Source of the DNA: Candidatus Pacearchaeota archaeon | GTDB lineage: Archaea > Nanobdellota > Nanobdellia > Pacearchaeales > GW2011-AR1 | NCBI GenBank assembly: GCA_038869895.1 | Contig: JAWCQE010000001.1 | Coordinates: 121,879-185,878, forward strand | DNA length: 64,000 nucleotides | Reading direction: 5' to 3' | Shown: positions 2,128 through 27,609 of the stretch, piece by piece | Layout of the letters: each line of letters starts with the position of its first letter | Position numbering within the stretch: position 1 is the first letter of the stretch | Program-made: the position numbers and the translations under genes | The notes under the pieces: model-generated | What the model was told of the DNA's origin: nothing | Database searches by the model: none | What the model saw: only the letters and a program-made list of their open reading frames with translations

Positions 2128-2137
2128 TTAAACGTAA

Positions 2138-2569: not shown

Positions 2570-2826
2570 AAGTAACCTCCTTTGTATTAAGATAATAAAA
2601 TTATGTTAAATTCGTTTATAAACATTTCTGTTAGTTGACTCTTTTATTATTAGTTAGTAGAAGATAATAAAGAGAGAAACCTTTGTCTTTTTTATAAAAG
2701 TTAATAGTGTAAAAACTGCTAATTTTTTGAATTTTACTTTTTCAAATCTTTATTAATACTTTTATTCTTTCAAATTAATCTTTGATAGATTTTTTTAATT
2801 GACAATATCCTTTTGAAATTATTGTT

Positions 2827-3744: not shown

Positions 3745-3745
3745 T

Positions 3746-6672: not shown

Positions 6673-7036
6673 TTTCTTTCTTTATAATATTTTCTCCTTT
6701 TAGTATCTCTCCGTTTACAGGAACAATATTATAAAGAACTCCAGTATCTTCAGTATACACATATATGCTGTTGTTTACAATTTTTACTTCATAGTTTTTT
6801 CCAATTATAGTTTGAGGGAGATTAAATTTTCGGGAATAACCATTTGATGATTTTGATGCAAGAGCTATTTCCTCTCTGACATTAAGAGCTATATTTTGGA
6901 CAATTATGTTTTCTTTTTCTTTGTTCTTTTCATTTATATTTCCAGATATCACTCCAAGGAATAAAACAAAGAAGAAAAGTATAGCTCCAAAAATAACAAT
7001 GAATTCTATAATCCCTTGTCCTCTTTTATTTTTCAT
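6647..7036 (-). CDS. Pilin-like protein (class III signal peptide); first gene of the minus-strand pilin operon
   Basis: N-terminus MKNKRG|QGIIEFIVIFGAILFFFVLFLGVI. Confidence 0.6.
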   Translation of the reverse strand: MKNKRGQGIIEFIVIFGAILFFFVLFLGVISGNINEKNKEKENIIVQNIALNVREEIALASKSSNGYSRKFNLPQTIIGKNYEVKIVNNSIYVYTEDTGVLYNIVPVNGEILKGENIIKKENGEVYLNQ

Positions 7037-12256: not shown

Positions 12257-12487
12257 ATGAGAACTCATTCATTAAATTCTATTTTGATTGTTCTTGGAAT
12301 TTTCTTATCTATTTTTATTCTTGCTTCTCTGACTAATTTTTCTCCCCCAAACAAAAAAGATGTAAGGTTAAGTGAAGATGATAGAGGAACTACAACTTAT
12401 GAGGCAACTGCCACAGGAATGACTTTAATCTCTTCATTGCAATCTTCAGCATCATCTAGTGGTGATAGTCAAATCAACCAGTTATAG
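12257..12487 (+). CDS. Hypothetical small membrane or secreted protein
   Basis: N-terminal hydrophobic segment ILIVLGIFLSIFILASL and a Ser/Thr-rich tail. Confidence 0.3.
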   Translation: MRTHSLNSILIVLGIFLSIFILASLTNFSPPNKKDVRLSEDDRGTTTYEATATGMTLISSLQSSASSSGDSQINQL

Positions 12488-12537
12488 ATTCTCCTAAGAG
12501 TGGTGATTTATGTTGTGGTGAAAGAAAACCTAAGGAA

Positions 12538-12834
12538 GTGTGGTGTGAGGACAATATATTTCACATATGTAAATCTGATTGTTTGATAGCAAAGGTAAAT
12601 TGTAGTGAATATGGAAAAATCTGCGGGATTAGTCCTCTTGATAAGGAATTATATGGTTCAGAAGAAATAAAATGCTGCTCTCCATGTCCTTATCCGGAAG
12701 GAACCAAAGTGTGTTCTTATGATAAAACTAAAATTTATGAGTGTGTTAAAGATTATCAATTAAAGCTAGCGGAAACTTGTCCTGATGGAAAAATATGTTT
12801 TGTTGATATAAATAATAATGCAGTTTGTATTTAA
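12538..12834 (+). CDS. Small cysteine-rich protein (12 Cys in 98 aa); the start is uncertain (GTG)
   Basis: Regularly spaced Cys (CKSDC...NCSEYGKICG...CCSPCPYPEGTKVC...). The frame is open from 12499 and no ATG is present. Confidence 0.35.
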   Translation: MWCEDNIFHICKSDCLIAKVNCSEYGKICGISPLDKELYGSEEIKCCSPCPYPEGTKVCSYDKTKIYECVKDYQLKLAETCPDGKICFVDINNNAVCI

Positions 12835-12918: not shown

Positions 12919-12972
12919 AATATGTAAAATAATATGTTAAATAATATGTAAAATAATATGTTAAATAATATG
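12919..12972. repeat. Tandem 12-nt repeat AATATGTWAAAT in 4.5 copies, overlapping the start of the HTH gene
   Basis: Read directly from the sequence: aatatgtaaaat aatatgttaaat aatatgtaaaat aatatgttaaat aatatgaat. Confidence 0.8.
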
Positions 12973-13155
12973 AATATTAATAATAAAGAGATATTAGATT
13001 TTGTAAAAAGTAAAAAGATAGTTACAAGTTCAGAAGTTGCGAAAAAATTTAATATTTCATGGAATACTGCAGATAAATATCTTCTTGAACTCGCATTTAA
13101 TGATAAAATCGAAAGAATTAAAAAAGAAGGGGTGAATTTATGGATTTTAAAATAA
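12958..13155 (+). CDS. Small winged-helix/HTH DNA-binding protein (putative transcriptional regulator)
   Basis: 65 aa: ...SSEVAKKFNISWNTADKYLLELAFNDKIERIKKEGVNLWILK is an HTH pattern. The start lies inside a 12-mer tandem repeat, and the alternative ATG at 12970 is in frame. Confidence 0.45.
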   Translation: MLNNMNINNKEILDFVKSKKIVTSSEVAKKFNISWNTADKYLLELAFNDKIERIKKEGVNLWILK

Positions 13156-13970
13156 AAAGTCAGATAAGTAAAAAATCAGCTTGCAAGAAAGGACAGGTGA
13201 CAATTTTTGTTATTATCTCTCTTCTTCTTGTTGTTGCAATAATCCTATTATTTATCCTTTACAAAAATCAGCAGATTCCTGGAGTAAGAGTCGAAAAAAC
13301 TTCTGGCGAGGAACTCGAGTCTTGTATTAAATCTTATCTTGAAGAAGCAGTCGATTTAATTTTTGAAAATTCTGGGTATATTGAACTGCCGGAATTAACT
13401 TATCAAATAAGAAATATTTATGGATATTACAAACAAGAAAATGAAAAGAAAATCCCTTATTTGTGTTATACTGCAATTAATTATGTAAGATGCATTCCGC
13501 AAGAGCCTTTTTTTGTAAACCATATAGAAGATGAAATAAAAAATTTCATAATTCCAAAAGTTGAGATATGTTTTGAGAATTTAAGGAATAGATTGCAAGA
13601 AAGAAATTATGAAACAATGTTTGGTATAACAAAAAATTTAGATGTTGAATTAAATGAAAGAGGAGTCCAAATTTATATTGAAAAAGAAATTTCGCAAACA
13701 AAAGCAGAGAAAGAAGAACGTTTTAGCGAATTTAAGTCTAATTATAAGACAAGATTGTATGATGTAGCAAAAATATCTGAAAAAATTATCACAGAGGAGG
13801 TTAAATTTTGCAATTCTGATTATGTTGAAGTGATGAGAAATAATAAATTAATTGAAATAACAAAATTTCAGACAGGAGATGATGTTAAAGTTTATTCTGT
13901 TAAGGATTTACCTTCAAAGAAAGAATTTAAATTTGCTGTAAGGAACTGTGTCCTTGCAACTCCATCTTAA
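13140..13970 (+). CDS. Class III signal peptide (pilin-like) protein, cassette copy 1 partner; paralog of 17934..18734
   Basis: N-terminus ...KKSACKKG|QVTIFVIISLLLVVAIILLFIL. The C-terminus FKFAVRNCVLATPS matches FNFAVRSLALPIGYGL in the paralog. Confidence 0.6.
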   Translation: MDFKIKSQISKKSACKKGQVTIFVIISLLLVVAIILLFILYKNQQIPGVRVEKTSGEELESCIKSYLEEAVDLIFENSGYIELPELTYQIRNIYGYYKQENEKKIPYLCYTAINYVRCIPQEPFFVNHIEDEIKNFIIPKVEICFENLRNRLQERNYETMFGITKNLDVELNERGVQIYIEKEISQTKAEKEERFSEFKSNYKTRLYDVAKISEKIITEEVKFCNSDYVEVMRNNKLIEITKFQTGDDVKVYSVKDLPSKKEFKFAVRNCVLATPS

Positions 13971-13971
13971 A

Positions 13972-16900
13972 ATGAATAAAAAGTTTATCGCAGGAATTGA
14001 AATTTTTCTTGTCATAAGCATGGCTGTTTCATTTTCATGGATTCTAGGAAATATTTATGGGACTTCTCCAGATATAAAAAGTTTATTAGAATTTATAACA
14101 ATAATTCCAAGTGTTTCTGCCCAAACAACTACATCATGTTGTCTTAATTTGAAAAGCGGAGCCAGTTGTACTGACATTCCATCTGATTCATGTTCTGATA
14201 TTTGTGATGGAAATTGTGTTTCAGGGACAACATGTTCTCAACTAAGGGAATGCAATCTTGGATGTGGATTTAATTCTGATGAAGGAACATGCACTCCAAA
14301 TACTCCAAGGGTACTATGTGAAGGAGATGAGGGCTGTGAATTTCTTGATGACCCTTTTTGCAACAATCAAAAATGTGAAATTGGATGTTGTGTTCTTGGA
14401 TTGAGTGCGAATTTGGAGACGAGAACTGGATGTGAAATACAATCTTTAAGAAGAGGAGTATCATTTGAATTTGACAGTTCAATAAAAGATGGCGTTCAAT
14501 GTTTGAATAAGGGTAAAACAAGTGAGGGAGCTTGTGTTGTAAATTTTGGAGAAGAAAAAAATAACTGCATTTTTACAACACAAAGTGAGTGTGTCAACAA
14601 TATAAAAGGAGTTTTTTATGAAGGCTATCTTTGTTCTCATCCAGAACTTAAAACAATATGTGTGAAGCAGTCAAGAGTAAGTTGTTTTGACAATAGGGAT
14701 GAGGTATATTGGTATGATTCATGTGGGAATAGAGAAAATATTTATTCATCAAATAGGGCAAGTTCATGGAATAATGGATTCGTCTTATCGAAAGAGAAAT
14801 CATGCAATCCTAATTCTTCAAATGAAAATTCAGGAAGCTGTGGAAATTGTAATTATAATCTTGGAAGTATATGCGGAGAGTTTAGGCCTGGAGTTGATTC
14901 TGGAAATATGGAAGGTTATACTTGTAGAAATTTAAACTGCATTGATTCAAAAGGAAAACAAAGAACAAACGGAGAATCATGGTGTGTTTATGATGGAACT
15001 ATAGGCGGAGGAAGTATACTTGAAGGGAAGAGTGGGGGATTATTATCAAAAATAGCTGGAGGATTATTGGAGGGAGAGGTTGCATTATTAAGCACTGATT
15101 TAGTAGGGAGCAGACATTTTAGGCAGGTATGTGTTAATGGAAAAGTAGAGGTAGAACCATGCGCTGATTATAGGAAGGAGATATGTGTCCAGAATGATAA
15201 ATCCCTTGATAATGGAAGAAAGATTGATAATGCAATATGTAGGATGAATTTATGGGAACAATGTATTTCATACAATCAAGGAAATGAGGGATGTGGGCCA
15301 GGATGTTTAACCAAATGTGTGAAAAATCCAGATTGTAGGATTCATCCTGTTTTTGTTGACTCTCGTTTTAAATTTAATGCTTGTGTCCCAAAATATCCTC
15401 CTGGATTTGATTTAGGAAGTACAAGCGGAGTAGATAGTTTTGTAAGAAATTATGTATCAAGTTCTATTAGTGATTTGGATGGAGGTGGGGTTCTTTCAAA
15501 ATTATCAGGAAGTTTAAGTTCTGAGAATTCTGCAGGAAGCATTTGTTCTTTAGCATCGCAAAAATGCACTAGTATATGGACTAAGACATGCGGACTATCA
15601 GGAATTCATTGGGAATGCACGAAAAACTGCAAATGCCATACTGAATCTTTTACAATTCAGATGAATAATCTTTGTGTTTCTCTTGGAGATTGTGGAGTTT
15701 ATGCAAATTATGAAGGAAAGGTTACTCCTGGTGGAGCTTATGTAACAAAGAAAGGAGGACATGGAAGGACCCCTCTACAACCATTTATTTTGATTCCAGT
15801 TTATGCTGTTTTAGTTAAAATATTAAAACCAACTCCTCCAAGTGGTGGATTTTTTCGAGATGAGAAAGACATAGTGAATTTTCCAACTGAAATTATTGAT
15901 CCATTCTTAGGAGGGTATAATAGAATAGATGTAGGGAAACTGCCAAGTCAGTTGGATAATATGCTTGGAAGCCAGTTAGGAACAACTATCGGAGCAGGAG
16001 TTGCTGGAGGACTTGTAGGAGGGGTAGTTGCAGGACTAGGAGGAGTTACAGCTGCAGGTCTTGGAGTTATTGGGGCTGCTACACAAGGAATATTATGGGC
16101 ACCAATTATTTTTCCAACAGGGGGGGTGGGTATGTTACAAATACCAGTTACTTTTTATGCTCCCACTAACAATATCCTTTCAACTGTATTTCACGGACAT
16201 TATTTAGGTAAACCATTTTTCGGATTTGATCCTTTATCAATTGCAATTGGAATCGCAGTTGGAATCGCGATTACTTATCTTATTGGATGTGGAAAAGTTA
16301 AGACAGTTGATATCAAATTTCAGTGTTTACCTTGGCAAAGGCCAAAAGGCGGGACTGATTGTGAGAAATGTGATGATGACCCTTTGAAACCATGTTCAAG
16401 GTATAGGTGTGAATCTCTTGGAGCAAGATGCACTTTGATAAATGAAGGAAAAGGAGATGTATGCGTAAGTGTTTCTGGGGAAAGTTCTATACCAGTAATT
16501 AGTCCATGGGAAGAGATACTCAATACCTCTTTTTATAGGTATGAAGACATAAGTCCTAATGGATTTAAAATAAGAACAAAAGATGGACAGTGTATACAGG
16601 CATTTACTTATTTAGTTTTTGGAGTTGAAACAGATGTTTATTCGGAGTGTTTCTGGAGTTTAGAACCATTTGCATATGAAAATAAATCAGAGGCAAATTT
16701 ATTTTTAGAAGGAAATCTTTTAACTAAAAATCATACAATGCTAACTTTATTGCCAAGTGTTGAAAGTTTATTGGCTAATGAAATTAATAACCAAGAAGAA
16801 TTGGGACAGGCATTGGAAACAACAACAGAACAGGACATCAGCGCCAGGCAATACATATTAAATCGATTAGGAGATTTAAATATCTATGTAAAATGCGCAA

Positions 16901-17898
16901 ACCTTGATGGAAAAGCCAACGACCAGGATTATAAAATAAACTTCTGTGTGTCTCCTGGGCCAGATATACAAGAACCGGTAATAATTGCGTCTTCTCCTCC
17001 GCAGAACAACTTCACAAAATTTGATGCAACAGAACAAGAAGCTTTCTTTTTTATTTCAGAACCAGCTGAATGTAGATGGGATAGTACGAGGCAAGTTATA
17101 TCAAATGAATTAGAATCATATAATTCATTGAGAAATGAAATGGAATGTAGTGTTGATTTAGATGAAAGTACAATACTTGGATGGCCGTGCAATGCAACTC
17201 TTCCAATAACAGGCGAGGAAAATAGATTTTTTATTCAATGTCGAGACCAGCCGTGGCTTGGAAATAATAACTCAAGAAACATAGGAGACATTTTTGAATA
17301 TTCGTTAAAAAGAAGTAATTCTGAATTAAAAATAACTTCTATTAAACCTAATGAAAAAGTCTTTGCAGGAAGTGAACCTATTATGATTGAATTGGAAGTT
17401 GAGACATCAGGAGGAGTTGAAAATGGAAACGCTTTCTGCAAATATAGTTTTGACAATAATCAATTTGTAAATTTCAGAATTACAGGCGAGAAAGTTCATA
17501 GCCAAATTCTAAATCAGATGAGAAAAGGAGATTATAAAGTTTATATTCAGTGTAATGATTTTGCAGGAAATGTTGCAGAAGGCATTGGGGAGTTCTCATT
17601 AGAACTTGATACTAAAGCCCCTGTTATAACAAGAGTTTTTAGTAATGCTAACACTTTATTCATTACAACAGATGAAGAGGCAAAGTGTTTTTATAAGAAT
17701 GAATCTGATGTAGGATGTAATTTTCCGTTAAATAATGTTACTGAATTTAATATTACTGAATTTACAAAGAATGGAAATATTCACTCAACTCCTTTAATAA
17801 AAGGAAAGAGTTACTATATAAAATGCGAAGATATTTGGAGCAATAGAGCTGAGAGTTGTTCTATTGTTGTAAGGAGTTTTGAAAATTTTGCAAGTTAA
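13972..17898 (+). CDS. Giant cysteine-rich secreted or surface protein (cassette copy 1, fused form, ~1308 aa)
   Basis: N-terminal hydrophobic signal ending SVSA|QTTTSCC. More than 90 Cys in repeated CxxC and CxC patterns. A central Gly-zipper TM-like segment (GAGVAGGLVGGVVAGLGGVTAAGLGVIG). The C-terminal half is homologous to ORF 20608..22692 and the N-terminal half to ORF 18751..20607. The ORF track begins at 13948, but the ATG at 13972 directly follows the upstream stop. Confidence 0.7.
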   Translation: MNKKFIAGIEIFLVISMAVSFSWILGNIYGTSPDIKSLLEFITIIPSVSAQTTTSCCLNLKSGASCTDIPSDSCSDICDGNCVSGTTCSQLRECNLGCGFNSDEGTCTPNTPRVLCEGDEGCEFLDDPFCNNQKCEIGCCVLGLSANLETRTGCEIQSLRRGVSFEFDSSIKDGVQCLNKGKTSEGACVVNFGEEKNNCIFTTQSECVNNIKGVFYEGYLCSHPELKTICVKQSRVSCFDNRDEVYWYDSCGNRENIYSSNRASSWNNGFVLSKEKSCNPNSSNENSGSCGNCNYNLGSICGEFRPGVDSGNMEGYTCRNLNCIDSKGKQRTNGESWCVYDGTIGGGSILEGKSGGLLSKIAGGLLEGEVALLSTDLVGSRHFRQVCVNGKVEVEPCADYRKEICVQNDKSLDNGRKIDNAICRMNLWEQCISYNQGNEGCGPGCLTKCVKNPDCRIHPVFVDSRFKFNACVPKYPPGFDLGSTSGVDSFVRNYVSSSISDLDGGGVLSKLSGSLSSENSAGSICSLASQKCTSIWTKTCGLSGIHWECTKNCKCHTESFTIQMNNLCVSLGDCGVYANYEGKVTPGGAYVTKKGGHGRTPLQPFILIPVYAVLVKILKPTPPSGGFFRDEKDIVNFPTEIIDPFLGGYNRIDVGKLPSQLDNMLGSQLGTTIGAGVAGGLVGGVVAGLGGVTAAGLGVIGAATQGILWAPIIFPTGGVGMLQIPVTFYAPTNNILSTVFHGHYLGKPFFGFDPLSIAIGIAVGIAITYLIGCGKVKTVDIKFQCLPWQRPKGGTDCEKCDDDPLKPCSRYRCESLGARCTLINEGKGDVCVSVSGESSIPVISPWEEILNTSFYRYEDISPNGFKIRTKDGQCIQAFTYLVFGVETDVYSECFWSLEPFAYENKSEANLFLEGNLLTKNHTMLTLLPSVESLLANEINNQEELGQALETTTEQDISARQYILNRLGDLNIYVKCANLDGKANDQDYKINFCVSPGPDIQEPVIIASSPPQNNFTKFDATEQEAFFFISEPAECRWDSTRQVISNELESYNSLRNEMECSVDLDESTILGWPCNATLPITGEENRFFIQCRDQPWLGNNNSRNIGDIFEYSLKRSNSELKITSIKPNEKVFAGSEPIMIELEVETSGGVENGNAFCKYSFDNNQFVNFRITGEKVHSQILNQMRKGDYKVYIQCNDFAGNVAEGIGEFSLELDTKAPVITRVFSNANTLFITTDEEAKCFYKNESDVGCNFPLNNVTEFNITEFTKNGNIHSTPLIKGKSYYIKCEDIWSNRAESCSIVVRSFENFAS

Positions 17899-17933
17899 AT
17901 TTATAAAGAAATTTGTTTTTAGAAGGTAATAGA

Positions 17934-18734
17934 ATGATTAAATCAAAAAACAAAAGAGGACAGACAACAATCTTTGTTATCTTAGCAGTAGTTATTGTTG
18001 CAGTCATAGTGATTTTTTTTGCAGTTACGGATATAGGGAGAGAAACTTTTGAAAAAATCTCTAATATTGTTGGCAGTGATGAGATTAATGTTAAAGAAGA
18101 ATTGAATAAATGTTTTATTGATAACAGCGAAATCAATAAAAAAATAAATCTAATTATGTCACAGGGAGGAAGTATTGAACCTTCTTTATTTTTTCTTCAT
18201 AATGGAACGAAATTAAGTTATTTATGTTATACTAATGAATTTTATAAGACATGTGTAAATCAGCAGCCTTTAATATTACAACATACAAAGAATGAGATAA
18301 ATAGGGCAATTCTTCCAGAAATAGATAAATGTATTTCTTCATTAAAAGCCAATTTTGAAAAAAGAGGATATCAAATAAGAGGACAGAATTTCGAGAGTTC
18401 AATAGATATAATTCACAACAACATAATTATTAAAATAAATTTCCCTCTAACTATCAAAAAGGGGGATTTAACACAGACATTTGAAAATTTTGAAATAAAA
18501 AAACATAGCCAGTATTATCAATTATTAAGTGTTGCAACATCAATTGTAAATTTTGAATCCCAATATGGCGATAGTGATCCAGTTTTATATATGTCTCTTT
18601 ATCCGAATACAAGAGTTGAAAAATTAAAACAAGGAGATGGGACAACAATTTATAAGATTAGTGATAGGGAAACAATGGAAACTTTTAACTTTGCTGTAAG
18701 AAGTTTGGCTTTGCCTATAGGATATGGATTATAA
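17934..18734 (+). CDS. Class III signal peptide (pilin-like) protein, cassette copy 2 partner
   Basis: N-terminus MIKSKNKRG|QTTIFVILAVVIVAVIVIFF. Paralog of 13140..13970 with a shared C-terminal FxFAVR motif. Confidence 0.6.
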   Translation: MIKSKNKRGQTTIFVILAVVIVAVIVIFFAVTDIGRETFEKISNIVGSDEINVKEELNKCFIDNSEINKKINLIMSQGGSIEPSLFFLHNGTKLSYLCYTNEFYKTCVNQQPLILQHTKNEINRAILPEIDKCISSLKANFEKRGYQIRGQNFESSIDIIHNNIIIKINFPLTIKKGDLTQTFENFEIKKHSQYYQLLSVATSIVNFESQYGDSDPVLYMSLYPNTRVEKLKQGDGTTIYKISDRETMETFNFAVRSLALPIGYGL

Positions 18735-18750
18735 ATTCAAATAGTTAAAA

Positions 18751-20607
18751 ATGGTGATTGAAAAAAAAGAAGAAAAATTGAAGAGAAAATTTACAAGTAA
18801 TTACTTTTTAGGTTTTAGTCTGTTTATTTTTTTTATTTTATTTTTTTCATCTTATGTCACGGCGCAGACAACGACAGTATGCTGTGAAAAAACTTTAAAT
18901 GGAGCTTACTGCCAGAATTCCATTCAAAGCCAGTGTGATTCAAGATTTTTAAGTTCACAAACAAGCTGTGATGCGACTTCTTTCTGTCAATTAGGAGTTT
19001 GTTATGATAGTGATGATGGATTATGTATGAATAATGTTCCTCAAAGGGCATGTGAAGAAGCAAACGGATTGTGGACAAGTGATGCAAATCCTCCCCAATG
19101 CAATTTAGGATGTTGTATTCTTGGGCAGCAGGCTTCTTTTACAACTCTTCAAAGATGTAAGAAATTATCTGGAACTTACGGACTTCAAGTGGATTTCAGA
19201 ACAGACATCAAAGACGAAGTTTCTTGTATTGCAGTTGCAAATGCACAAGACATTGGAGCTTGTGTTTTTGAGTCAGAATTTACAAGAACCTGTAAATTTG
19301 TTACAAGAGCTGAATGTGGCACTTCAATGAACTCAACAAATTCAGGAGTAGTTCCTAATACGCAATTTTTCAAGGATTTTTTATGTACTTCAGAACAGCT
19401 TAATACAAACTGCCAGAGAACCTCAAAAACTTCTTGTTTTGAAGGAGAGGATGAAGTTTATTTTATTGATAGCTGTGGGAATAAGGCTAATATTTATGAT
19501 GCTTCAAGAATAAATGATAAAAATTATTGGGAAAAAAGAGTTCCTAAAAGTCAGAGCTGCACTGCCTCTAGGAATTCTAGAAGTTGTGGAAACTGCGATT
19601 ATCTTGAAGGAAGTATTTGTTCTAAAGCTAAAGATTCTGGTGTTAAGCCAGCTTATGGCGAATTTATCTGTAGGGATATAAATTGTTATAGTACTTCAAA
19701 TGGAAAAAATTACAAAAATGGGGAGTCATGGTGTTTTTACGACAATAATAATAAAGGGGATGATAGGGTTGGAAGTAGACATTTTAGGCATATTTGTTTT
19801 ATGGGAGAGGAAATTGTAGAACCATGCGCTGATTATAGGCAAGAAACATGCATTGAAGATTCGATAAATGTTGAGGGCGGTGGAACTTTTCTACAAGCAG
19901 GATGTGTTGTGAATAGGTGGCATGATTGTTTGTTGCAGAAAAGAATTGAAGATTGCCAAAATACTGATTTAAGAGATTGTAAATGGATTCCGGTTTCTGA
20001 AGAACCTGAAGAGATAGCAAAAGGGATAATTGATGCATCTTTAAATAAAATTACAAATGGATTTTCTGGATTATTAATGAATGTTATTGAAAAAGATGAA
20101 AGAGATAAAGGGGCTTGTGTTCCAGATATTGCTCCAGGACTTGAATTTTGGGGGGAGTCGGCGGCATCTCAGTGTGACTTAGTAAGTTCAAGTTGTGTTA
20201 TAACTTATGAAAAGACGTTAATTGGAGGAAAAAAGTGTGTTAAGAATTGCTTTTGTGATATAAAAGAAAACCCACAAACAGCAATTCAGGCATTGAATAT
20301 ATGTTCCTCTATAGGAGACTGCGGACCAGGAGCAAATTATATAGGAAAATTTGTTAATAATGGTTATGAACTAAGAATAGATGACAAAAAAATAGGTCCT
20401 GAACTTAATTTAGGAATTTTTACTGCTTCTCCTGTTCAAAGTGGAAGTCCTGCAAATCCCTCTACAAATCCCTCTTTTGAACAAAGAAGAGAATTTTCAA
20501 CAGCAACACAACAGACATTTCAAACTCAAACCTCAACTGCAACTTCAACAACAGGAAATATTATCAAAGATATAATAACTGAAACATATAAACAACTTGG
20601 AAAATAA
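18751..20607 (+). CDS. Cysteine-rich secreted protein, homolog of the N-terminal half of the giant protein (cassette copy 2, module 1)
   Basis: Signal peptide ...SSYVTA|QTTTVCC. Matches copy 1 motifs SRHFRHICFMGEEIVEPCADYRQETC and IGDCGPGANYIGK. It ends at a TAA immediately followed by the ATG of the next ORF. Confidence 0.65.
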   Translation: MVIEKKEEKLKRKFTSNYFLGFSLFIFFILFFSSYVTAQTTTVCCEKTLNGAYCQNSIQSQCDSRFLSSQTSCDATSFCQLGVCYDSDDGLCMNNVPQRACEEANGLWTSDANPPQCNLGCCILGQQASFTTLQRCKKLSGTYGLQVDFRTDIKDEVSCIAVANAQDIGACVFESEFTRTCKFVTRAECGTSMNSTNSGVVPNTQFFKDFLCTSEQLNTNCQRTSKTSCFEGEDEVYFIDSCGNKANIYDASRINDKNYWEKRVPKSQSCTASRNSRSCGNCDYLEGSICSKAKDSGVKPAYGEFICRDINCYSTSNGKNYKNGESWCFYDNNNKGDDRVGSRHFRHICFMGEEIVEPCADYRQETCIEDSINVEGGGTFLQAGCVVNRWHDCLLQKRIEDCQNTDLRDCKWIPVSEEPEEIAKGIIDASLNKITNGFSGLLMNVIEKDERDKGACVPDIAPGLEFWGESAASQCDLVSSSCVITYEKTLIGGKKCVKNCFCDIKENPQTAIQALNICSSIGDCGPGANYIGKFVNNGYELRIDDKKIGPELNLGIFTASPVQSGSPANPSTNPSFEQRREFSTATQQTFQTQTSTATSTTGNIIKDIITETYKQLGK

Positions 20608-22692
20608 ATGGAGAATAAAAAGTTAAGAAGAATGAAAAAAAAGGGAATAAAAAAAAGTGAAGGATTATTTTTAATAGCGAATATTCTTTTAGGGATTTTT
20701 GCCTTTGCGTTTATTATGAACGTTGAAGTTGTTAGAGGGCAGGCGGACGGAGTAGGTTCTAATGGAGATGAGGAGGGGAAAGTTGAGGACCAGAATGGGA
20801 TTGGCAATAAGGGGGGGAAAACAGGGGAAGAAAAAGGATCTAAAAAATTTAAAATAGGTAATTTCACAAAATCAGCAAGTTATATAACAGGAGGACTTGC
20901 GTTAGGACAAATTATAAAAGAACTTGCTGGTGATGAACCATGGGGGGATGCATTAGGGAATGCGTTGGGAGTTGCTGGAGGAGTTTCAGGTTTTTCTAGT
21001 TTATTTCCTGAAAAAACCTTTTTAGGAGGTAATGCTCATTTATTAGGGGTAGGGGCAGGAATACTAACTTTTATTTTAACATACAAGAAAATTGAATATG
21101 AAACTGTTTTTTTTACATGTCAACCATGGGAAGCTCCTATTGGAGGGAATGACTGTGAGAAATGTAATGATGGAGTCCATCCATGTTCTGAATATAGGTG
21201 CAAGAGTTTAGGACAGGCTTGTGATTTAGTTAATAAAGGAACTGAAAAGGAACTCTGCGTCTGGACAAATCCAAGAGATGTAAATAGTCCTTCAATAAGG
21301 CCACTTGAAAGCGCTTTAAGTCCAGGATATAGATATGTTCCTTTAGGGGCAAGGCCTCCTAATTGGGGAACTCAAATAAAACCTTTGGGAGACGATTGTA
21401 TTCCTCCATTTACTCCAATACAATTTGGAATACAAACAGACAAACCTTCTCAATGTAAGATTGACTTTTTAATTCTTGGAGGAGCGGGAGATGTTGATGT
21501 AAAACCAAAAGGATACGATGATATGAAATTCTTTTTTGGCATGAGTAATTTATATGATTATAATCATATTCAATCTTTGAGCTTGCCAAGTCCTAATACT
21601 ATAAATAAAGTTGATGAATTAAGGCAGAATGAAACAGGAGGTTTAGAAATACAAAATGATGGCATATATAACTTATATGTGCGATGTAGAAGTGCGAATG
21701 GATTTTATAATGCAGACCCTTATAAAATAAATTTCTGTGTTCAGAAAGGGCCAGACTTAACTCCTCCAGAAATTGTTGAAACAAGCATAAGAAACGGACA
21801 GCCTATAAACTTTGAAGCGGATAATGTAACTTTAAGTGTATTTACAAACGAACCTGTAAATTGCAAATGGTCAAGAGATAATGATTTAAGTTTTGAGAGT
21901 ATGAATAATGAAATGATATGCGCTAATAACCTTCAGGATATAAGAAATAATATGCTTTATGAGTGTAGAACTAGATTGACTGGAATAAAAGATAGGCAGG
22001 ATAATTTATTTTATTTCAGATGTGAAGACCAGCCTTGGGAATCTCCAAGCAATAGAAATAAAATGTCTAGAGGATATCAATTTGTCTTAAAAGGAACACA
22101 GCCTTTGAATATTAAACAAGATTCAATAAAGCCAATATCAGGGAGCATTTTAACAGGAGCGACTTCAACAATTCCTATAACTCTGGAAGTTGAAACTCAA
22201 AATGGATTTAATGAGGGAGAATCTGTTTGTCTTTATAGTTTGAATAATGAAACTTTCATAAGATTTTTTGAAACAAATTCATTTAAGCACAAGCAGACTC
22301 AAGATTTAACTCAGGGAGAATATACTTATTATATAAGATGTGTGGATTTAGGAGGAAATCAAGATTATGGTATTACAACTTTCAGTGTTTTTGTTGACAC
22401 TCAAGCACCATTAATTACAAGAGTCCTAAATGATAATAATAAACTTAAGATAATTACAGATGAGGAAGCAGTATGTAGATATACAAATGATATAAATACA
22501 AGATGCAATTTTGACATTAACGAGGGAGAGGGAAATCCAATGCAATATCCTTCTCAAAATCAGAGAAAAGAACATCTTGCAATGTGGAATACAAAAGAGA
22601 CTTATTATATCAAATGTATGGATATTAACAATAGACAACCGAATCCGACAGAATGTTCAATAATTGTTCGTCCTGTTGAGTTAAGAGAATAA
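20608..22692 (+). CDS. Cysteine-containing surface protein, homolog of the C-terminal half of the giant protein (cassette copy 2, module 2)
   Basis: Own N-terminal Lys-rich plus TM segment, then a Gly-rich stretch. TCQPWEAPIGGNDCEKCNDGVHPCSEYRCKSLGQACDLVNKG aligns to QCLPWQRPKGGTDCEKCDDDPLKPCSRYRCESLGARCTLINEG of copy 1. YKINFCVQKGPD and TQAPLITRVLNDNNKLKIITDEEAVCRY are also shared. Confidence 0.65.
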   Translation: MENKKLRRMKKKGIKKSEGLFLIANILLGIFAFAFIMNVEVVRGQADGVGSNGDEEGKVEDQNGIGNKGGKTGEEKGSKKFKIGNFTKSASYITGGLALGQIIKELAGDEPWGDALGNALGVAGGVSGFSSLFPEKTFLGGNAHLLGVGAGILTFILTYKKIEYETVFFTCQPWEAPIGGNDCEKCNDGVHPCSEYRCKSLGQACDLVNKGTEKELCVWTNPRDVNSPSIRPLESALSPGYRYVPLGARPPNWGTQIKPLGDDCIPPFTPIQFGIQTDKPSQCKIDFLILGGAGDVDVKPKGYDDMKFFFGMSNLYDYNHIQSLSLPSPNTINKVDELRQNETGGLEIQNDGIYNLYVRCRSANGFYNADPYKINFCVQKGPDLTPPEIVETSIRNGQPINFEADNVTLSVFTNEPVNCKWSRDNDLSFESMNNEMICANNLQDIRNNMLYECRTRLTGIKDRQDNLFYFRCEDQPWESPSNRNKMSRGYQFVLKGTQPLNIKQDSIKPISGSILTGATSTIPITLEVETQNGFNEGESVCLYSLNNETFIRFFETNSFKHKQTQDLTQGEYTYYIRCVDLGGNQDYGITTFSVFVDTQAPLITRVLNDNNKLKIITDEEAVCRYTNDINTRCNFDINEGEGNPMQYPSQNQRKEHLAMWNTKETYYIKCMDINNRQPNPTECSIIVRPVELRE

Positions 22693-22848: not shown

Positions 22849-23541
22849 TCAAGCAAGATAATCTATAGTTAGTTTTGGTGCTATATCTAGTAAGCCAGTT
22901 CTTTGGGCAAGTTCCCTAGAAATAAATCCCACTCCGTGGTCATCGCCGCCATACCCATCATCAATGTCTCTCCCTTTAATAGTGAATCCGTAATTTGGTT
23001 CTCCAGCAACCCAACCTCGGACAGCTTGTTTAACATCCCAGTTATGGACTCTTCCATCTAAAATAATTCTTGAAGAAGAAATAAATTCCATATGATTAAA
23101 AGAAGAATTATGAGTTAAACCTCCTTCTTGCCAAGGATTTAAGGTAAGTTTATCAATATCTACTGTAGCTATTGGTTGTATACGGGACGCTGTTATTACA
23201 GAACTCATGGAAAAAATTGCACTATCAATCCTTGCATTTCTTGGGATACTTGAAACGTCAAATTTTACATACCCTCTAAAACTTGCACTACGTTGTGGAG
23301 TGTGGATTTCACCAGTTTGTATAATATCTTCTCTTCCGTAATTTGTTGCAGGATTTTCAGAACTTGTATAAGTATCTCCAATGGCATATAAAACAATGGA
23401 ATGGAACTCTCCGTTTCCACCTCCTCCTCCGCCTCCGTCTCCCCCTCCAGGGTTGCTAGAAGGACAACCTGCTATTATCCAGTAGCCTGCTAATCCTAAA
23501 GTTTTTAAAATTTCCCTTCTTGTAATTATATCCCCCTTCAT
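22849..23541 (-). CDS. Tat-signal lipoprotein-like secreted protein with a Gly-rich linker and a DNRLRE/CBM96-like beta-sandwich domain
   Basis: Twin-arginine motif TRREILKTLGLAG followed by AGC (lipobox-like), then GGGDGGGGGGGNG. The domain pattern IGDTYTSSENPATNYG...YVKFDVSSIP...IDSAIFSMS resembles DNRLRE-type domains. Confidence 0.45.
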   Translation of the reverse strand: MKGDIITRREILKTLGLAGYWIIAGCPSSNPGGGDGGGGGGGNGEFHSIVLYAIGDTYTSSENPATNYGREDIIQTGEIHTPQRSASFRGYVKFDVSSIPRNARIDSAIFSMSSVITASRIQPIATVDIDKLTLNPWQEGGLTHNSSFNHMEFISSSRIILDGRVHNWDVKQAVRGWVAGEPNYGFTIKGRDIDDGYGGDDHGVGFISRELAQRTGLLDIAPKLTIDYLA

Positions 23542-23838
23542 TTTTTTATTTAAAATTAAGAGTTTAAATATTTTTCCTTTTGATGTGGTTTGTAAAGTAA
23601 ATCCTTAAATCAAGTTACTTTTTTTACAAAGGGTAATTATTTTACGAAACTTATTCAGATGAATTGTAAATGAATCTTCAAATTTGATTTTATTTATAGG
23701 GCAATATCGATATCTTACAAATAGCAAGATTAGATAAGGTATTTTTATCAATATTAAATTTATTTATATATTATAGAAATTACAAATTTTACTATTTATT
23801 TTATACTTTTAAGTATAATTAATTATTATAAATAGAAT

Positions 23839-25159: not shown

Positions 25160-25648
25160 ATGAAAAGAGGACAATTTCAACTTGGATTTGGAATGATTTT
25201 CTCTATTATATTGATAATTGCATTTATAATTGTTGCATTTATTGCTTTCAAAGCTTTTTTTGGAGTGAGGTGTTCTACTGAACAAGGAAGATTTATTTAT
25301 GAACTTCAGAATGAAATTGACAGGATATGGAAAGGCTCGGGCGAGGATAGGATTAAGGAATTTAAAATTTTAGGATGTGATTTTGATTATGTTTGTTTTT
25401 GGGATCCAAATGTTCCTTCAAGAGGAAATTTCAGAACTTTTGAAGACGATTTCAGTATTTTTACAGGAGATGAAGGAAACCATAATTTATATTTTTATCC
25501 AAGAAAAAAAGTAGAAATTTCTTCAACCTTGATAAAGCATATTAATATGGATTTTAGAGAGAATCCTGTATGTTTTAGAAACGAGGAGAATTCTGTTAAA
25601 ATAAGACTCAGCAAAAACATTGACGAAGATTTAGTAAGAGTCTCATAA
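25160..25648 (+). CDS. Pilin-like protein (class III signal peptide); first gene of the plus-strand pilin-like operon
   Basis: N-terminus MKRG|QFQLGFGMIFSIILIIAFIIVAFIAF. Confidence 0.6.
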   Translation: MKRGQFQLGFGMIFSIILIIAFIIVAFIAFKAFFGVRCSTEQGRFIYELQNEIDRIWKGSGEDRIKEFKILGCDFDYVCFWDPNVPSRGNFRTFEDDFSIFTGDEGNHNLYFYPRKKVEISSTLIKHINMDFRENPVCFRNEENSVKIRLSKNIDEDLVRVS

Positions 25649-25649
25649 A

Positions 25650-26600
25650 ATGAATAAAAATGGTTTTGAGTTCAGCTTTGCATGGCTGTTTGCGATAATT
25701 GCTGGTGCAGCTGTGCTTTTTCTTGCAATTTTTTTTGCAACAAAATATGTTTCAACAAGCGAATTTGAAATTAATACAAAAATTGCAGCCGAATTTGTAA
25801 ATGTTCTTAATCCTTTGCAAACAAGTGTTTATGATTCATCTGCAATAAATGTATTTCTCCCATCTGAAGCGAGAATTTTTACTTCATGCGATAGTGGAGG
25901 AAATTTTGGAAGAAGTATTGTAACTTTTTCCGAAAAAATAGGTTTTGGTGAAAAATTTTCAAGGGCAGGCAATCCAATCTCAACTGAAAATTCATATTTA
26001 TTTGCTGAAAATATTATTGAAGGAAAAAAGATTAATTTTCTTGTTTTCTCTTTAAAAATGCCTTACAAAATTGGGGATATTCTTATAGCTTATTCTGATT
26101 CTTACTGCTTTGTAAATGCCCCAAGAAATATTGAGAGAGAACTTGGAGATTTAACAGAAGGAAATAGTTTTGATGTCATATTCACTTCAAATAAAAATGC
26201 CTGTCCTGAAAGTAAGCCTGTGTGTTTTGGAGGTTTTGAATGTGATATAAATGTAAGATGCAACGACAATGAATGTTTAAGTGGATTTGTAAGAAAGGAT
26301 GGAATGGATAATTATTTTACTGGAAAACTTTTATACGGAGCGATATTTTCGTCAAGGGAAAATTATGAGTGTAATGTTAAGAGATTAATGAAGAGGCTTG
26401 AATCAGTTAGCACTATTTATTCTAAAAAATCCCAGTTTATAGCTTCAAGAGGATGCACTAATACAAATTTGCTTCCATTAATTGAATCTCTTAGAGAATC
26501 TTCTGGAGAATTTGAAAGGCTTGAAAACCTCCCACAAATTTCCTCTATTGCAGACGAAGTAAATGAAAAAAATAAATATCTTGAATGCCAGTTATTTTAA
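25650..26600 (+). CDS. Pilin-like protein (class III signal peptide), Cys-containing
   Basis: N-terminus MNKNG|FEFSFAWLFAIIAGAAVLFLAIFF. It starts 2 nt after the upstream stop. Confidence 0.55.
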   Translation: MNKNGFEFSFAWLFAIIAGAAVLFLAIFFATKYVSTSEFEINTKIAAEFVNVLNPLQTSVYDSSAINVFLPSEARIFTSCDSGGNFGRSIVTFSEKIGFGEKFSRAGNPISTENSYLFAENIIEGKKINFLVFSLKMPYKIGDILIAYSDSYCFVNAPRNIERELGDLTEGNSFDVIFTSNKNACPESKPVCFGGFECDINVRCNDNECLSGFVRKDGMDNYFTGKLLYGAIFSSRENYECNVKRLMKRLESVSTIYSKKSQFIASRGCTNTNLLPLIESLRESSGEFERLENLPQISSIADEVNEKNKYLECQLF

Positions 26601-27125
26601 ATGAAAGATAAAAAAGCCCAATTAAAGATAAAGCAGATGATTTTTATGCTTCTAGCTCTAACTATTTTTTTTGTTCTTGTTGCTTTGTTTTTTATCTCAA
26701 TAAAATCAATTAACCTTGAGAAAGAGGTTGTTGAATTAAAAAGAGATAGAGCTTCTAACTTAGTTGAAAAACTTTCTTCAACTCCGGAATTTATATTTGA
26801 AAACAAACCAAATTCAATTGATGCAGATAAACTTATTATCCTTCAAAGTGAAAGTATATATAGAACGAGAACGGATTCGACTTTTTGGGGAGTTGAGGGG
26901 ATAATAGTAAGAAGAATTTATCCGAAAGAAAGAGAGATTGAATGCACTAAATTTAACTATCCTGAATGTAATATTATCAAACTTTTTACAGAAAAAAATA
27001 CAAGTCCAACTTCAAGTTTCGTTTCATGGTGTAGAAAACAAAGTCTTGAAGGAAGGACGTATGATAAATGCGAACTTGCAGAACTTATGATAATTGAGGA
27101 AAAAATAAATGAAGCTCAAGACTAA
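26601..27125 (+). CDS. Pilin-like protein (class III signal peptide)
   Basis: N-terminus MKDKKAQLKIKQMIFMLLALTIFFVLVALFFI. Start abuts the upstream stop. Confidence 0.55.
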   Translation: MKDKKAQLKIKQMIFMLLALTIFFVLVALFFISIKSINLEKEVVELKRDRASNLVEKLSSTPEFIFENKPNSIDADKLIILQSESIYRTRTDSTFWGVEGIIVRRIYPKEREIECTKFNYPECNIIKLFTEKNTSPTSSFVSWCRKQSLEGRTYDKCELAELMIIEEKINEAQD

Positions 27126-27609
27126 AAAATCGCAGGAAGAAATAGTCGGGTTTGTTTTAATAGTTGTCCTTATTGCTATTATCGGAGTTATATTTTTAGG
27201 GATATCCTTAAGAAAGGATTCAGGTAAGGTTAATGAAAGCCAAAAAATTGCAAGCCTTATAACTTCAATATCTCATTTGACAACTCAGTGTCAGATAAAT
27301 TCAAATTTCCAAGATGTAAGTGATTTAATAAATGGGTGTGCTAATAGAAGAATTTGCGATGATTCAAAGCCTACTTGTGAAGTCTTAAAAACCACTCTTG
27401 ATGAGGTTATGAAAGCAAGTTATGTTGTAACTGATAAAAGCTTTACAACACATTATAATTTAACAATAAATAATAAATTTGATAATACTATTTTAATAGA
27501 GCCGGTAATTTCAGGAAAAGTTGAAAGATGTCTTGGAAGAAAACTCGTAAATGAAAAAAATTTTGGCAGAGATTTATCAATGAGGATTGAAGTCTGTTTT
27601 AATGAATAA
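27109..27609 (+). CDS. Pilin-like protein (class III signal peptide)
   Basis: N-terminus MKLKTKKSQEEIVGFVLIVVLIAIIGVIFLGI. Overlaps the upstream gene by 17 nt. Confidence 0.55.
   Translation: MKLKTKKSQEEIVGFVLIVVLIAIIGVIFLGISLRKDSGKVNESQKIASLITSISHLTTQCQINSNFQDVSDLINGCANRRICDDSKPTCEVLKTTLDEVMKASYVVTDKSFTTHYNLTINNKFDNTILIEPVISGKVERCLGRKLVNEKNFGRDLSMRIEVCFNE

What the first reader, a model, noticed from the sequence alone, without database searches (positions are those of the whole stretch)
13140..22692. Tandemly duplicated two-gene cassette: a class-III-signal (pilin-like) ~275-aa protein plus a giant cysteine-rich secreted protein
Two consecutive copies of the same module are present. Each copy pairs a ~275-aa protein carrying an archaeal class III signal peptide with a ~1300-aa secreted protein. 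The small partners (KKG|QVTIF... and KRG|QTTIF...) share the C-terminal FxFAVR motif. The large proteins have a Sec-type signal (VSA|QTTT / VTA|QTTT), roughly 90 cysteines in CxxC/CxC arrays, an internal Gly-zipper hydrophobic segment, and conserved blocks such as SRHFRQVC..EPCADYR, CLPWQRPKGGTDCEKCDD..CSRYRCESLG and YKINFCV..GPD. Nothing in the sequence matches a named adhesin, toxin or S-layer family that I recognise. Pairing with a pilin-like protein, duplication and divergence of the pair, and the surrounding type IV pilus-like genes all suggest a pilus-presented adhesin or host-attachment module. Such a module would be plausible for an episymbiotic DPANN archaeon and appears undescribed.
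Basis: partly seen in the sequence, partly recalled or inferred. Interest (0 to 1): 0.85.

Follow-up and report, generated by a model that had tools for sequence, protein, structure and literature searches.

The report
Conserved pilin-plus-giant surface protein operon
Two ancient sister copies of a gene pair, a pilin-like membrane protein plus a giant cysteine-rich surface protein, form the front of a surface-gene cluster found across Pacearchaeota and Woesearchaeota (tiny, probably symbiotic DPANN archaea); no component matches a described family, so it is a strong but untested candidate for how these cells attach to partners.

Summary
At 13140-22692 (+) there are two paralogous cassettes. 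Cassette 1 is A1 (276 aa) plus B1 (1308-1316 aa). In cassette 2 the giant gene is two genes, B2n (618 aa) and B2c (694 aa), split by TAA|ATG at 20605-20610. This is not a local duplication or a pseudogene. In 65 of 67 informative loci from other species a second cassette follows the first, and it is split in 53 of them. All labelled records are Pacearchaeota, Woesearchaeota or Nanoarchaeota. The usual order is regulator, A, B, A, Bn, Bc, four further pilin-like genes, S-layer gene. The giant family is large (2,259 clusters at E<=1e-30) and has no significant Pfam, NCBIfam or PDB sequence match. AlphaFold models are confident. The only fold matches are generic Ig-like domains in the C-terminal half of B. 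The A fold and the B N-domain are unmatched. A carries a conserved class III (prepilin) signal. B carries its own conserved membrane helices, which argues against a pilus-tip adhesin. Best reading: a membrane-anchored surface or envelope complex, probably for attachment. Function is inferred, not shown.

The parts
12958..13155 (+). Small winged-helix DNA-binding protein (65 aa), probable operon regulator. It overlaps the A1 start by 16 nt.
   Evidence: ORF. Weak wHTH matches (Sso10a/DeoR-type HTH). A homologous ~61-aa ORF sits in the same overlapping position upstream of the first A in about 27 related loci. A ~47-aa RHH protein replaces it in about 14.
13140..13970 (+). A1: 276-aa class-III-signal (prepilin-like) protein. 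Leader M1-G18, predicted cleavage KKG|Q19, hydrophobic helix to about residue 43, then an alpha/beta globular domain with 4 conserved Cys and C-terminal FKFAVR.
13972..17898 (+). B1: fused giant protein (1308 aa from ATG 13972; the mechanical ORF starts at GTG 13948). Segments: N-terminal helix with conserved Glu (13975-14049); Cys-rich N domain (14125-15894); Gly/Ala-rich hydrophobic region (15907-16236); strong TM helix (16234-16284); Cys knot (16297-16500); beta domain (16498-16956); three Ig-like domains (16981-17871).
17913..18734 (+). A2: paralogue of A1 (273 aa from TTG; 266 aa from ATG 17934). Predicted cleavage KRG|Q; C-terminal FNFAVR.
   Evidence: 69 of 70 A genes that precede a split Bn in other species score closer to A2 than to A1. 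Its N-terminus gives a sub-threshold Pfam Tad (TadE/G-like) match of 17.7 bits against a cut-off of 22.3.
18751..20607 (+). B2n: N-terminal half of the second giant as a separate gene (618 aa, 43 Cys). It has an ordinary Sec-type signal (cleavage VTA|Q39), no membrane helix after it, and a Thr/Gln/Ser-rich tail.
   Evidence: All 71 split Bn in relatives score closer to B2n than to the B1 N domain. Bn genes carry plain signal peptides.
20608..22692 (+). B2c: C-terminal half as a separate gene (694 aa, 21 Cys). Segments: Lys-rich N-terminus; membrane helix (residues ~16-46, polar Asn inside); Gly-rich linker; TM helix 138-158; Cys knot (FFTCQPWEAPIGGNDCEKCND...); beta/Ig-like domains to the end.
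   Evidence: Weak Pfam Big_13 match at 554-598.
25160..27609 (+). Context: four consecutive small class-III-signal-like ORFs (162, 316, 174, 166 aa; KRG|QFQ, KNG|FEF, KKA|QLK, KKS|QEE). They follow Bc directly in related loci.
   Evidence: Synteny. No Pfam or NCBIfam match. No detectable homology to A.
28461..31115 (+). Context: 884-aa S-layer-type protein at the end of the conserved cluster.
   Evidence: Pfam S_layer_C, E=5.5e-8. It follows pil4 in 10 of 13 related loci with enough flank.

Best explanation
The region is the front of a conserved, lineage-specific cell-surface operon of Pacearchaeota/Woesearchaeota. It encodes two paralogous units that probably work together.

Each unit pairs two proteins:
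- (i) A protein with a class III (prepilin-type) signal. After cleavage behind K/R-G it keeps a ~23-residue hydrophobic N-helix in the membrane, or in the base of a short pseudopilus, and exposes a ~210-aa disulfide-stabilised globular domain.
- (ii) A giant membrane-anchored surface protein. This is either one chain (B1) or two (secreted B2n plus membrane-anchored B2c).

The giant protein is built from a densely disulfide-bonded N-terminal head of unmatched fold, a membrane-embedded segment, and a cysteine knot followed by a stalk of beta-sandwich/Ig-like domains. The membrane segment consists of an N-terminal helix with a buried polar residue, a Gly/Ala-rich 'zipper' and a strong TM helix.

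Proposed mechanism (inferred): the A helix and the B/Bc helices pack in the membrane. The ectodomains form a fixed, non-retractile complex beside or through the S-layer. The unglycosylated Cys-rich head acts as the binding surface for a partner cell or substrate. The four downstream pilin-like proteins and the nearby type IV filament motor build or prime the associated filament or pseudopilus.

Shown here: paralogy, gene order, conservation, signal motifs, hydrophobic helices, confident models, Ig-like C-terminal domains.
Inferred: processing, A-B contact, topology, surface exposure, adhesion.
For: Paralogy.

Conserved pairing and tight coupling:
- A abuts 131 of 157 B/Bn genes. The commonest spacings are +1, -25 and -4 nt.
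- In the window the spacers are 1, 14-35, 16 and 0 nt on one strand.

Ancient two-cassette design:
- A second cassette is present in 65 of 67 informative loci; it is split in 53 and fused in 12.
- The two cassettes form separate orthologous groups.

Cluster context:
- The order A-B-A-Bn-Bc-pil1-4-S-layer recurs.
- A small regulator sits in front.
- A T2SSE ATPase, two T2SSF genes and a KaiC-like ATPase lie about 12 kb upstream.

Class III motif on A:
- Gln at +1 is invariant; Thr at +3 and Phe at +5 are invariant or nearly so.
- A strict regex matches 102 of 163 A ORFs.

Membrane helices of B:
-.
- The special polar-residue helix is shared by fused B (48/92) and Bc (29/49) but not Bn (5/72).

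Extracellular character:
- 56 alignment columns are >92% Cys, and optional Cys come and go in pairs.
- The summed Cys count of the N part, the juxtamembrane residues and the C domain is even in 56 of 63 sequences. The N part and the C domain are each odd in 41 of those.
- pTM 0.65 for the whole 1165-aa model suggests the N and C halves pack together.
- The C half matches extracellular-type Ig/FN3/PKD domains (weak Big_13/Y_Y_Y matches).
- N-glycosylation sequons are strongly depleted in the N domain only: observed/expected 0.28, against 1.11 for the C domain and 0.78 for cytoplasmic proteins of the window.

Family size: 2,259 / 3,747 / 6,934 representatives at E<=1e-30 / 1e-10 / 1e-3.

Cellular, not viral.
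Against: - No experiment or expression data; no paper found describes the family.
- Class III status rests on the motif only. Pfam Class_IIIsignal and Tad models are below threshold. No prepilin peptidase gene is in the window.
- The A fold is not recognisably a pilin.
- Topology is unresolved. K+R averages 2.6 in the 15 residues after the last TM against 0.27 before it. By the positive-inside rule this would put the C domain in the cytoplasm. Some members show only one strongly hydrophobic segment between the two domains.
- The cysteine co-variation is not corrected for phylogeny.
- Ig-like domains are generic and do not prove adhesion.
Confidence: 0.5

Rival explanations
1. Pilus-presented adhesin. 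A is a minor pilin that carries B to the tip or shaft of a type IV pilus, as minor pilins carry PilY1 in bacteria.
For: - Class III motif on A.
- One large non-pilin protein plus several pilin-like genes in one cluster.
- Filament motor genes nearby.
- B2n is a soluble secreted protein that could be displayed.
Against: - All fused B and all Bc keep a strongly hydrophobic helix before the C domain and a conserved N-terminal membrane helix. That would tether them to the cell membrane.
- The window already has a separate VWA-domain 820-aa protein next to pilin-like genes and the motor, at 2827-7036. That is a better tip-adhesin candidate.
Confidence: 0.15
2. S-layer accessory. B (with A) is a structural envelope element. 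It could be an anchor or stalk under the S-layer, or a collar that locally opens the lattice so that filaments can pass. It would not be an adhesin.
For: - Constant synteny with the S_layer_C gene.
- Near-universal presence in the loci examined.
- Ig-like domain arrays.
- Published proposals that Ig-fold, S-layer-like, Cys-bearing proteins in archaeal type IV filament loci prime the S-layer for filament passage (10.64898/2026.04.22.720090; PMC4858521).
Against: - No sequence match to S-layer families, while the neighbouring gene does match.
- The membrane helices are central, not a C-terminal anchor.
- The sequon-depleted Cys-rich head looks more like a binding module than a lattice unit.
- Two diverged paralogues with fast-evolving A partners (only 28 word-based hits) suggest a diversifying interaction surface.
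Confidence: 0.2
3. Membrane-active contact or exchange device. The Gly/Ala-rich zipper segments oligomerise into a pore, or act like fusion peptides, so that B links the symbiont membrane to a partner cell.
For: - Long Gly/Ala/Ser-rich semi-hydrophobic segments next to the TM helix in all members inspected.
- Split into a soluble head and a membrane subunit in most species.
- Large envelope complexes of unknown identity exist in another DPANN archaeon (PMC11329633).
Against: - Purely architectural analogy.
- The Gly-rich region is low-confidence in the model.
- The hosts and lifestyle of these lineages are unknown.
Confidence: 0.08
4. Decaying duplicate. The second copy is a pseudogene broken by a nonsense mutation or an assembly error.
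For: An in-frame TAA lies inside what aligns as one protein.
Against: - The same split occurs in 53 of 65 species that have a second cassette.
- Other genes are often inserted between the halves.
- The halves share a frame only at chance level.
- Bc has its own start codon and N-terminal helix.
- Both halves keep all conserved Cys.
Confidence: 0.01

Closest known systems
Bacterial type IVa pilus priming/tip complex (minor pilins FimU-PilVWX plus the ~1,100-aa PilY1), and the T2SS GspHIJK tip (own knowledge; tip complex mentioned in PMC13190605)
   Same: One operon-like cluster combines several small class-III-signal proteins, one of them clearly larger (pil2, 316 aa), with very large non-pilin surface proteins. 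A filament ATPase and platform genes are encoded elsewhere.
   Different: - B has no PilY1/PilC beta-propeller or VWA module and no sequence or fold match.
- B is membrane-anchored by its own helices.
- There are two paralogous A-B units.
- The giant gene is split in most species.
Large Cys-bearing S-layer-like or adhesin proteins in archaeal type IV filament loci (Makarova et al. 2016, PMC4858521; 2026 TFF preprint 10.64898/2026.04.22.720090)
   Same: Archaeal filament-associated loci that hold large proteins with conserved cysteines, Ig-like folds, and sometimes an S-layer-like gene. These proteins are proposed to be adhesins, minor pilins or S-layer primers.
   Different: - Those systems are described in Thermoproteales, Methanococcales, Thermococcales and Halobacteria, and are defined by arCOGs.
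- Neither paper describes this cassette or Pace/Woesearchaeota.
- The anchor in those proteins is C-terminal, not central.
Modular type IV pilins with grafted adhesive modules (e.g. Streptococcus sanguinis PilB/PilC; own knowledge) and the Sulfolobus bindosome (class III signals on non-pilin surface proteins)
   Same: A class III signal is used to anchor or assemble a sizeable globular surface domain rather than a plain filament subunit. Many Bc N-termini also look class-III-like ([KR]G, then E/Q 5-6 residues later).
   Different: - The globular domain of A has no recognised functional module.
- A is always coupled to a separate giant partner.
'Module 98' of Castelle et al. 2021 (PMC8204110): 51 protein families specific to Pacearchaeota plus Woesearchaeota
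   Same: Same lineage restriction. The families mostly have unknown function, and many lineage-specific families are predicted membrane-bound or extracellular.
   Different: Only a bulk statistical listing. Membership of A and B could not be checked because the table is not held. No operon, structure or function is described there.

Membership tests
Archaeal class III signal (prepilin / type IV pilin-like) proteins - for A1/A2 | Short basic leader ending [KR]-[GAS], then about 20 or more hydrophobic residues | tested here: met
   A1 has KKG|QVTIFVIISLLLVVAIILLFILY and A2 has KRG|QTTIFVILAVVIVAVIVIFFAV. Gln +1 is invariant; Thr +3 and Phe +5 are invariant or nearly so. A strict regex matches 102 of 163 A ORFs.
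Archaeal class III signal (prepilin / type IV pilin-like) proteins - for A1/A2 | Match to a curated model (Pfam Class_IIIsignal PF04021, Tad PF13400) | tested here: inconclusive
   A2 N-terminus vs Tad: 17.7 bits against a cut-off of 22.3. A1: E=3. No PF04021 hit. These are very short models.
Archaeal class III signal (prepilin / type IV pilin-like) proteins - for A1/A2 | Cleavage by a prepilin peptidase (PibD/FlaK/EppA) encoded in the genome | not testable with these tools
   No Peptidase_A24 gene among the window ORFs scanned. The rest of the genome was not examined. Cleavage needs an experiment.
Archaeal class III signal (prepilin / type IV pilin-like) proteins - for A1/A2 | Pilin fold: long N-terminal helix packed on an antiparallel sheet | tested here: inconclusive
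Archaeal class III signal (prepilin / type IV pilin-like) proteins - for A1/A2 | Genomic link to a type IV filament ATPase and platform protein | tested here: met
   T2SSF x2 at 1-1286 and a KaiC-like ATPase at 1342-2124. A T2SSE ATPase lies directly upstream of the window. These are about 12 kb away, not adjacent.
PilY1/PilC-type pilus tip adhesins - for B | PilY1/PilC C-terminal beta-propeller (and often an N-terminal VWA domain) | tested here: not met
PilY1/PilC-type pilus tip adhesins - for B | Soluble after export (no membrane anchor), so that it can travel with the pilus | tested here: not met
   A conserved strong hydrophobic helix precedes the C domain, and there is an N-terminal helix. 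Only B2n is anchor-free.
Archaeal S-layer proteins (S_layer_N/S_layer_C, SlaA/SlaB) - for B | Sequence match to an S-layer family | tested here: not met
   None for B. The neighbour 28461-31115 matches S_layer_C.
Archaeal S-layer proteins (S_layer_N/S_layer_C, SlaA/SlaB) - for B | Arrays of Ig-like beta-sandwich domains with a C-terminal anchor | tested here: inconclusive
   Ig-like domains are present in the C half. The protein ends in an Ig-like domain and the anchor is central.
Class II fusogens (HAP2 / archaeal fusexins) - for B | Three-domain class II fusion fold with a C-terminal TM | tested here: not met

The most novel reading that the evidence does not exclude
The two A-B units, with the four pilin-like proteins, form an envelope-spanning docking or exchange machine specific to Pacearchaeota/Woesearchaeota. 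The glycine-zipper helices of B/Bc and the pilin-like helices of A would oligomerise into a membrane conduit or membrane-active element. The unglycosylated disulfide-rich heads would recognise the partner cell. This would be a previously unknown apparatus through which these reduced-genome archaea contact and draw on a host.
Probability: 0.12. Interest if true: 0.95.

Novelty: new variant of a known kind. Interest (0 to 1): 0.66.

Why it matters
Pacearchaeota and Woesearchaeota are among the most widespread DPANN archaea. None is described in culture in the papers searched, and neither their hosts nor their means of attachment are known. This cluster is:
- present in nearly every informative locus examined;
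- very large as a family, with thousands of 50%-identity clusters;
- confidently foldable;
- completely unannotated.

It therefore gives concrete, testable candidates for the contact surface of these cells.
- The Cys-rich head could be expressed as a probe to fish for hosts or ligands.
- The proteins could serve as antigens for cell sorting or immuno-EM.
- The unmatched N-domain and A folds are targets for structure determination.
- The fused/split pair offers a natural experiment on how a giant surface protein is divided into a secreted head and a membrane base.

Tried and rejected
- **Known-family searches found nothing significant.** Pfam and NCBIfam on all five proteins and on 31 homologues gave only weak Big_13, Y_Y_Y and DUF4625 hits. 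PDB sequence searches with the B and A profiles found nothing.
- **Pseudogene or read-through of the TAA at 20605: rejected**.
- **Viral or mobile origin: rejected.** No relatives in the viral contigs, and the locus has conserved chromosomal synteny.
- **A homologous to the downstream pilin-like proteins: not detected** (hhalign probability 0.4% and 17%).
- **Sigma-70 promoter and terminator scan:** uninformative for an archaeon, and counts were near the shuffled expectation.
- **Literature.** Six full-text searches and eight papers read; none describes the cassette. Supplementary Table 3 of PMC8204110, which might list the families, is not held.
- **Sequon counts** for A1 and B2n used out-of-frame coordinates and are disregarded.
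- **Topology** could not be settled with hydropathy, charge bias and cysteine parity alone.


Full report
**What is in the window**

The window is archaeal and AT-rich: it has an archaeal LSU rRNA at 37181-40015 and 25-35% GC apart from the rRNA. A1 is identical to a protein of an NCBI MAG named Candidatus Pacearchaeota archaeon.

The + strand carries an unbroken run of genes:

| Gene | Coordinates | Length | Notes |
|---|---|---|---|
| wHTH ORF | 12958-13155 | 65 aa | Overlaps the A1 start |
| A1 | 13140-13970 | 276 aa | |
| B1 | ATG 13972 to 17898 | 1308 aa | The mechanical ORF starts at GTG 13948 |
| A2 | 17913/17934-18734 | 273/266 aa | |
| B2n | 18751-20607 | 618 aa | |
| B2c | 20608-22692 | 694 aa | |

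The two copies are real paralogues.
- A1 vs A2: 26% identity, E=6e-21.
- B1 vs B2n: 33% identity, E=5e-68.
- B1 vs B2c: 35% identity, E=6e-80.

Three points need correcting.
- The second giant is two genes in the same frame, separated by TAA followed directly by ATG.
- The cysteine counts are 72 and 43+21, not about 90.
- The giant proteins are not simply secreted (see the protein section below).

**Conservation**

A word-based search with B1 found 582 relatives. Nearly all are 1,100-1,400 aa. None has a functional name from its source apart from one spurious label (P0054, noted below), and the organism labels are Pacearchaeota or Nanoarchaeota.

A full HMMER scan of 1.84 billion representatives gave 2,259 proteins at E<=1e-30, 3,747 at E<=1e-10 and 6,934 at E<=1e-3. 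The weakest tier may include unrelated Ig-domain proteins.

A scan of one genome per GTDB species found 373 coding stretches. The best 80 loci are all Pacearchaeota, Woesearchaeota or Nanoarchaeota MAGs, apart from records labelled only 'archaeon' or 'uncultured archaeon' and one labelled only 'bacterium'.

I called ORFs in these loci and classified them with phmmer. The recurrent order is A, B, A, Bn, Bc, pil1, pil2, pil3, pil4, S-layer protein.
- Of 67 loci with at least 3 kb after the first B, 65 have a second cassette. It is split in 53 and fused in 12.
- Four loci have three cassettes.
- An A gene abuts 131 of 157 B/Bn genes, usually with +1, -4 or about -25 nt spacing. Most of the other 26 have an A gene 0.4-2.8 kb upstream. 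Three are B-B junctions, and two are fragments of one broken gene in L053.

The split halves are independent genes.
- They share a frame in only 17 of 48 loci.
- In many species, lipobox-type small genes or toxin-antitoxin-like pairs sit between them.

The two cassettes are separate orthologous lineages.
- All 71 split Bn are closer to the window's B2n.
- 77 of 96 fused B are closer to the B1 N domain.
- 69 of 70 A genes that precede a Bn are closer to A2.

So the duplication predates the divergence of the species sampled here.

A small DNA-binding protein precedes the first A in most loci where one was found. It is a wHTH like the window's in about 27 loci and an RHH in about 14.

No relative was found in viral contigs.

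**What the proteins look like: A**

- A has a conserved N-terminus. A basic leader is followed by [KR]-[GAS], an invariant Gln, Thr at +3, Phe at +5 and about 23 hydrophobic residues. This is the pattern of archaeal class III signals cleaved by prepilin peptidases (established knowledge of PibD/FlaK/EppA substrates).
- Curated Pfam models are only approached, not reached: Tad scores 17.7 bits against a cut-off of 22.3 for A2.
- The AlphaFold2 model of A1 is confident (pLDDT 89.5). It shows a membrane helix, a flexible linker and an alpha/beta domain.

**What the proteins look like: B**

B was modelled through a full-length homologue that fits the size limit: P0015, 1165 aa, 42% identical to B1, built with an 85-sequence alignment. 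The model has pLDDT 82.4 and pTM 0.65. Along the chain it shows:
- a long N-terminal helix;
- a mixed alpha/beta Cys-rich N domain of about 520 aa;
- a low-confidence Gly-rich stretch;
- one clear membrane helix;
- an all-beta C-terminal half.

56 alignment columns are more than 92% Cys.

**Membrane parts and topology**

Fused B and split Bc share a distinctive N-terminal helix with a buried polar residue.
- The residue is E or Q in most. It is E in B1 and N in the window's B2c.
- The helix carries an AF[AS][FY] motif, and in many Bc it follows [KR]G.
- Bn instead have plain Sec signals.

So when the gene split, the special helix stayed with the membrane half.

Directly before the C domain every member has a strong hydrophobic helix. 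It is preceded by long Gly/Ala/Ser-rich semi-hydrophobic segments.

Whether the C domain is outside or inside the cell is not settled.
- For inside: Lys and Arg cluster after the last helix (2.6 against 0.27 per 15 residues).
- For outside:
  - Ig-like folds with conserved cysteines spaced at short intervals within each domain.
  - A whole-chain pTM that implies the N and C halves pack together.
  - A Gly/Ala-rich segment that could form a hairpin with the last helix.
  - Cysteine parity. The N part and the C domain each have an odd number of Cys in 41 of 63 sequences. A clade that gains one Cys in the N domain also gains one right after the last helix (r=0.98). The summed count of the N part, the juxtamembrane residues and the C domain is even in 56 of 63.

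I lean towards both domains being outside, at roughly 60:40. The parity argument is not corrected for phylogeny.

N-glycosylation sequons are strongly depleted in the N domain (84 observed against 304 expected). They are not depleted in the C domain (396 against 357) or in cytoplasmic proteins of the window (20 against 25.7). This fits an exposed head kept free of glycans.

**Context in the window**

- Bc is followed by two minus-strand genes that are absent from the other loci mapped. One is a CBM96 protein with a Tat/lipobox-like N-terminus (22849-23541). The other is a Schlafen/AlbA_2 protein (23839-24969).
- Next come the four class-III-like ORFs (25160-27609) and an S_layer_C protein (28461-31115).
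- About 6-12 kb upstream lie pilin-like ORFs including a DUF7266 member, a VWA-domain 820-aa protein, a KaiC-like ATPase and two T2SSF platform genes.
- On the source contig a T2SSE ATPase sits directly before the window.
- No prepilin peptidase gene was found among the window ORFs scanned.

**Interpretation**

The data best fit a conserved, membrane-anchored surface complex. It would be made of two paralogous units, each a pilin-like subunit plus a giant disulfide-rich protein, operating with the four minor-pilin-like proteins and the S-layer.

The closest functional analogy is the bacterial minor-pilin/PilY1 priming complex. The closest archaeal analogies are the large Cys-bearing, Ig-fold proteins noted in other archaeal type IV filament loci (PMC4858521; 10.64898/2026.04.22.720090).

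Membership in any of those families fails on sequence, fold and anchoring. A strict pilus-tip role is unlikely because B keeps its own membrane helices.

An S-layer accessory role and a membrane-active contact device remain open. Cryo-ET of another DPANN archaeon shows large envelope complexes whose proteins are unknown (PMC11329633).

Castelle et al. 2021 reported 51 families specific to Pacearchaeota plus Woesearchaeota, mostly of unknown function (PMC8204110). A and B plausibly belong to that set, but I could not verify it.

**Verdict**

- The finding is real.
- It is larger than the stated coordinates, reaching from the regulator to the S-layer gene.
- It is undescribed in every resource searched.
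- Its function is inferred only.

Noticed in passing
window 12958-13155 (+): A 65-aa winged-helix protein overlaps the A1 start by 16 nt. The same small gene, or a ~47-aa RHH protein in its place, precedes the first cassette in most related loci. This suggests a dedicated regulator.
   Followed up: partly
L001, L006, L009, L015, L017, L024, L039, L045, L050, L055, L057 and others, between Bn and Bc: One to three small lipobox-type ORFs (N-terminus ...L[AST]GC...) are inserted between the two halves of the split giant gene in many species. Other loci carry nucleotidyltransferase/HEPN-like toxin-antitoxin pairs there. In the window the halves abut.
   Followed up: partly
window 14125-15894 (B1 N domain) and family-wide: N-x-S/T sequons are strongly depleted in the Cys-rich N domain (84 observed against 304 expected over the family; 1 against 7.3 in B1). 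They are not depleted in the C domain or in cytoplasmic proteins of the window.
   Followed up: partly
window 13975-14049 and 20653-20745; related loci: Fused B and split Bc share an N-terminal membrane helix with a conserved buried E/Q/N. In many Bc, [KR]G lies 5-6 residues before it, reminiscent of Glu5 of type IV pilins. Bn have ordinary signal peptides.
   Followed up: partly
window 22849-24969 (-): Two minus-strand genes interrupt the otherwise conserved Bc-to-pil1 junction. One is a CBM96 carbohydrate-binding protein with a Tat/lipobox-like N-terminus. The other is a membrane protein with a Schlafen/AlbA_2 domain. They are not seen at this position in the other loci mapped.
   Followed up: no
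window 1-7036; L084 7745-10963: A separate type IV filament locus holds a T2SSE ATPase (just outside the window), two T2SSF platform genes, a KaiC-like ATPase (1342-2124), an 820-aa VWA-domain protein (3746-6208, -) and small pilin-like ORFs (6205-7036, -; one matches DUF7266 and weakly Class_IIIsignal). The VWA protein is a PilY1-like tip-adhesin candidate.
   Followed up: partly
window 12257-12834 (+): A 76-aa ORF with an N-terminal hydrophobic segment is followed, in another frame, by a 98-aa Cys-rich ORF without a signal. This may be one secreted Cys-rich gene broken by a frameshift. No counterpart was found in the related loci.
   Followed up: no
window 37181-40015 (-): The LSU rRNA gene stands alone. 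No SSU or 5S rRNA was found anywhere in the 64-kb window at Rfam gathering thresholds, so the rRNA genes appear unlinked.
   Followed up: no
P0027, P0054, L065 (public records): Some family members sit in records labelled 'Candidatus Paceibacterota bacterium' or 'MAG: bacterium'. One is annotated by JGI as 'cytochrome c oxidase subunit IV'. These are probably binning or annotation errors.
   Followed up: no
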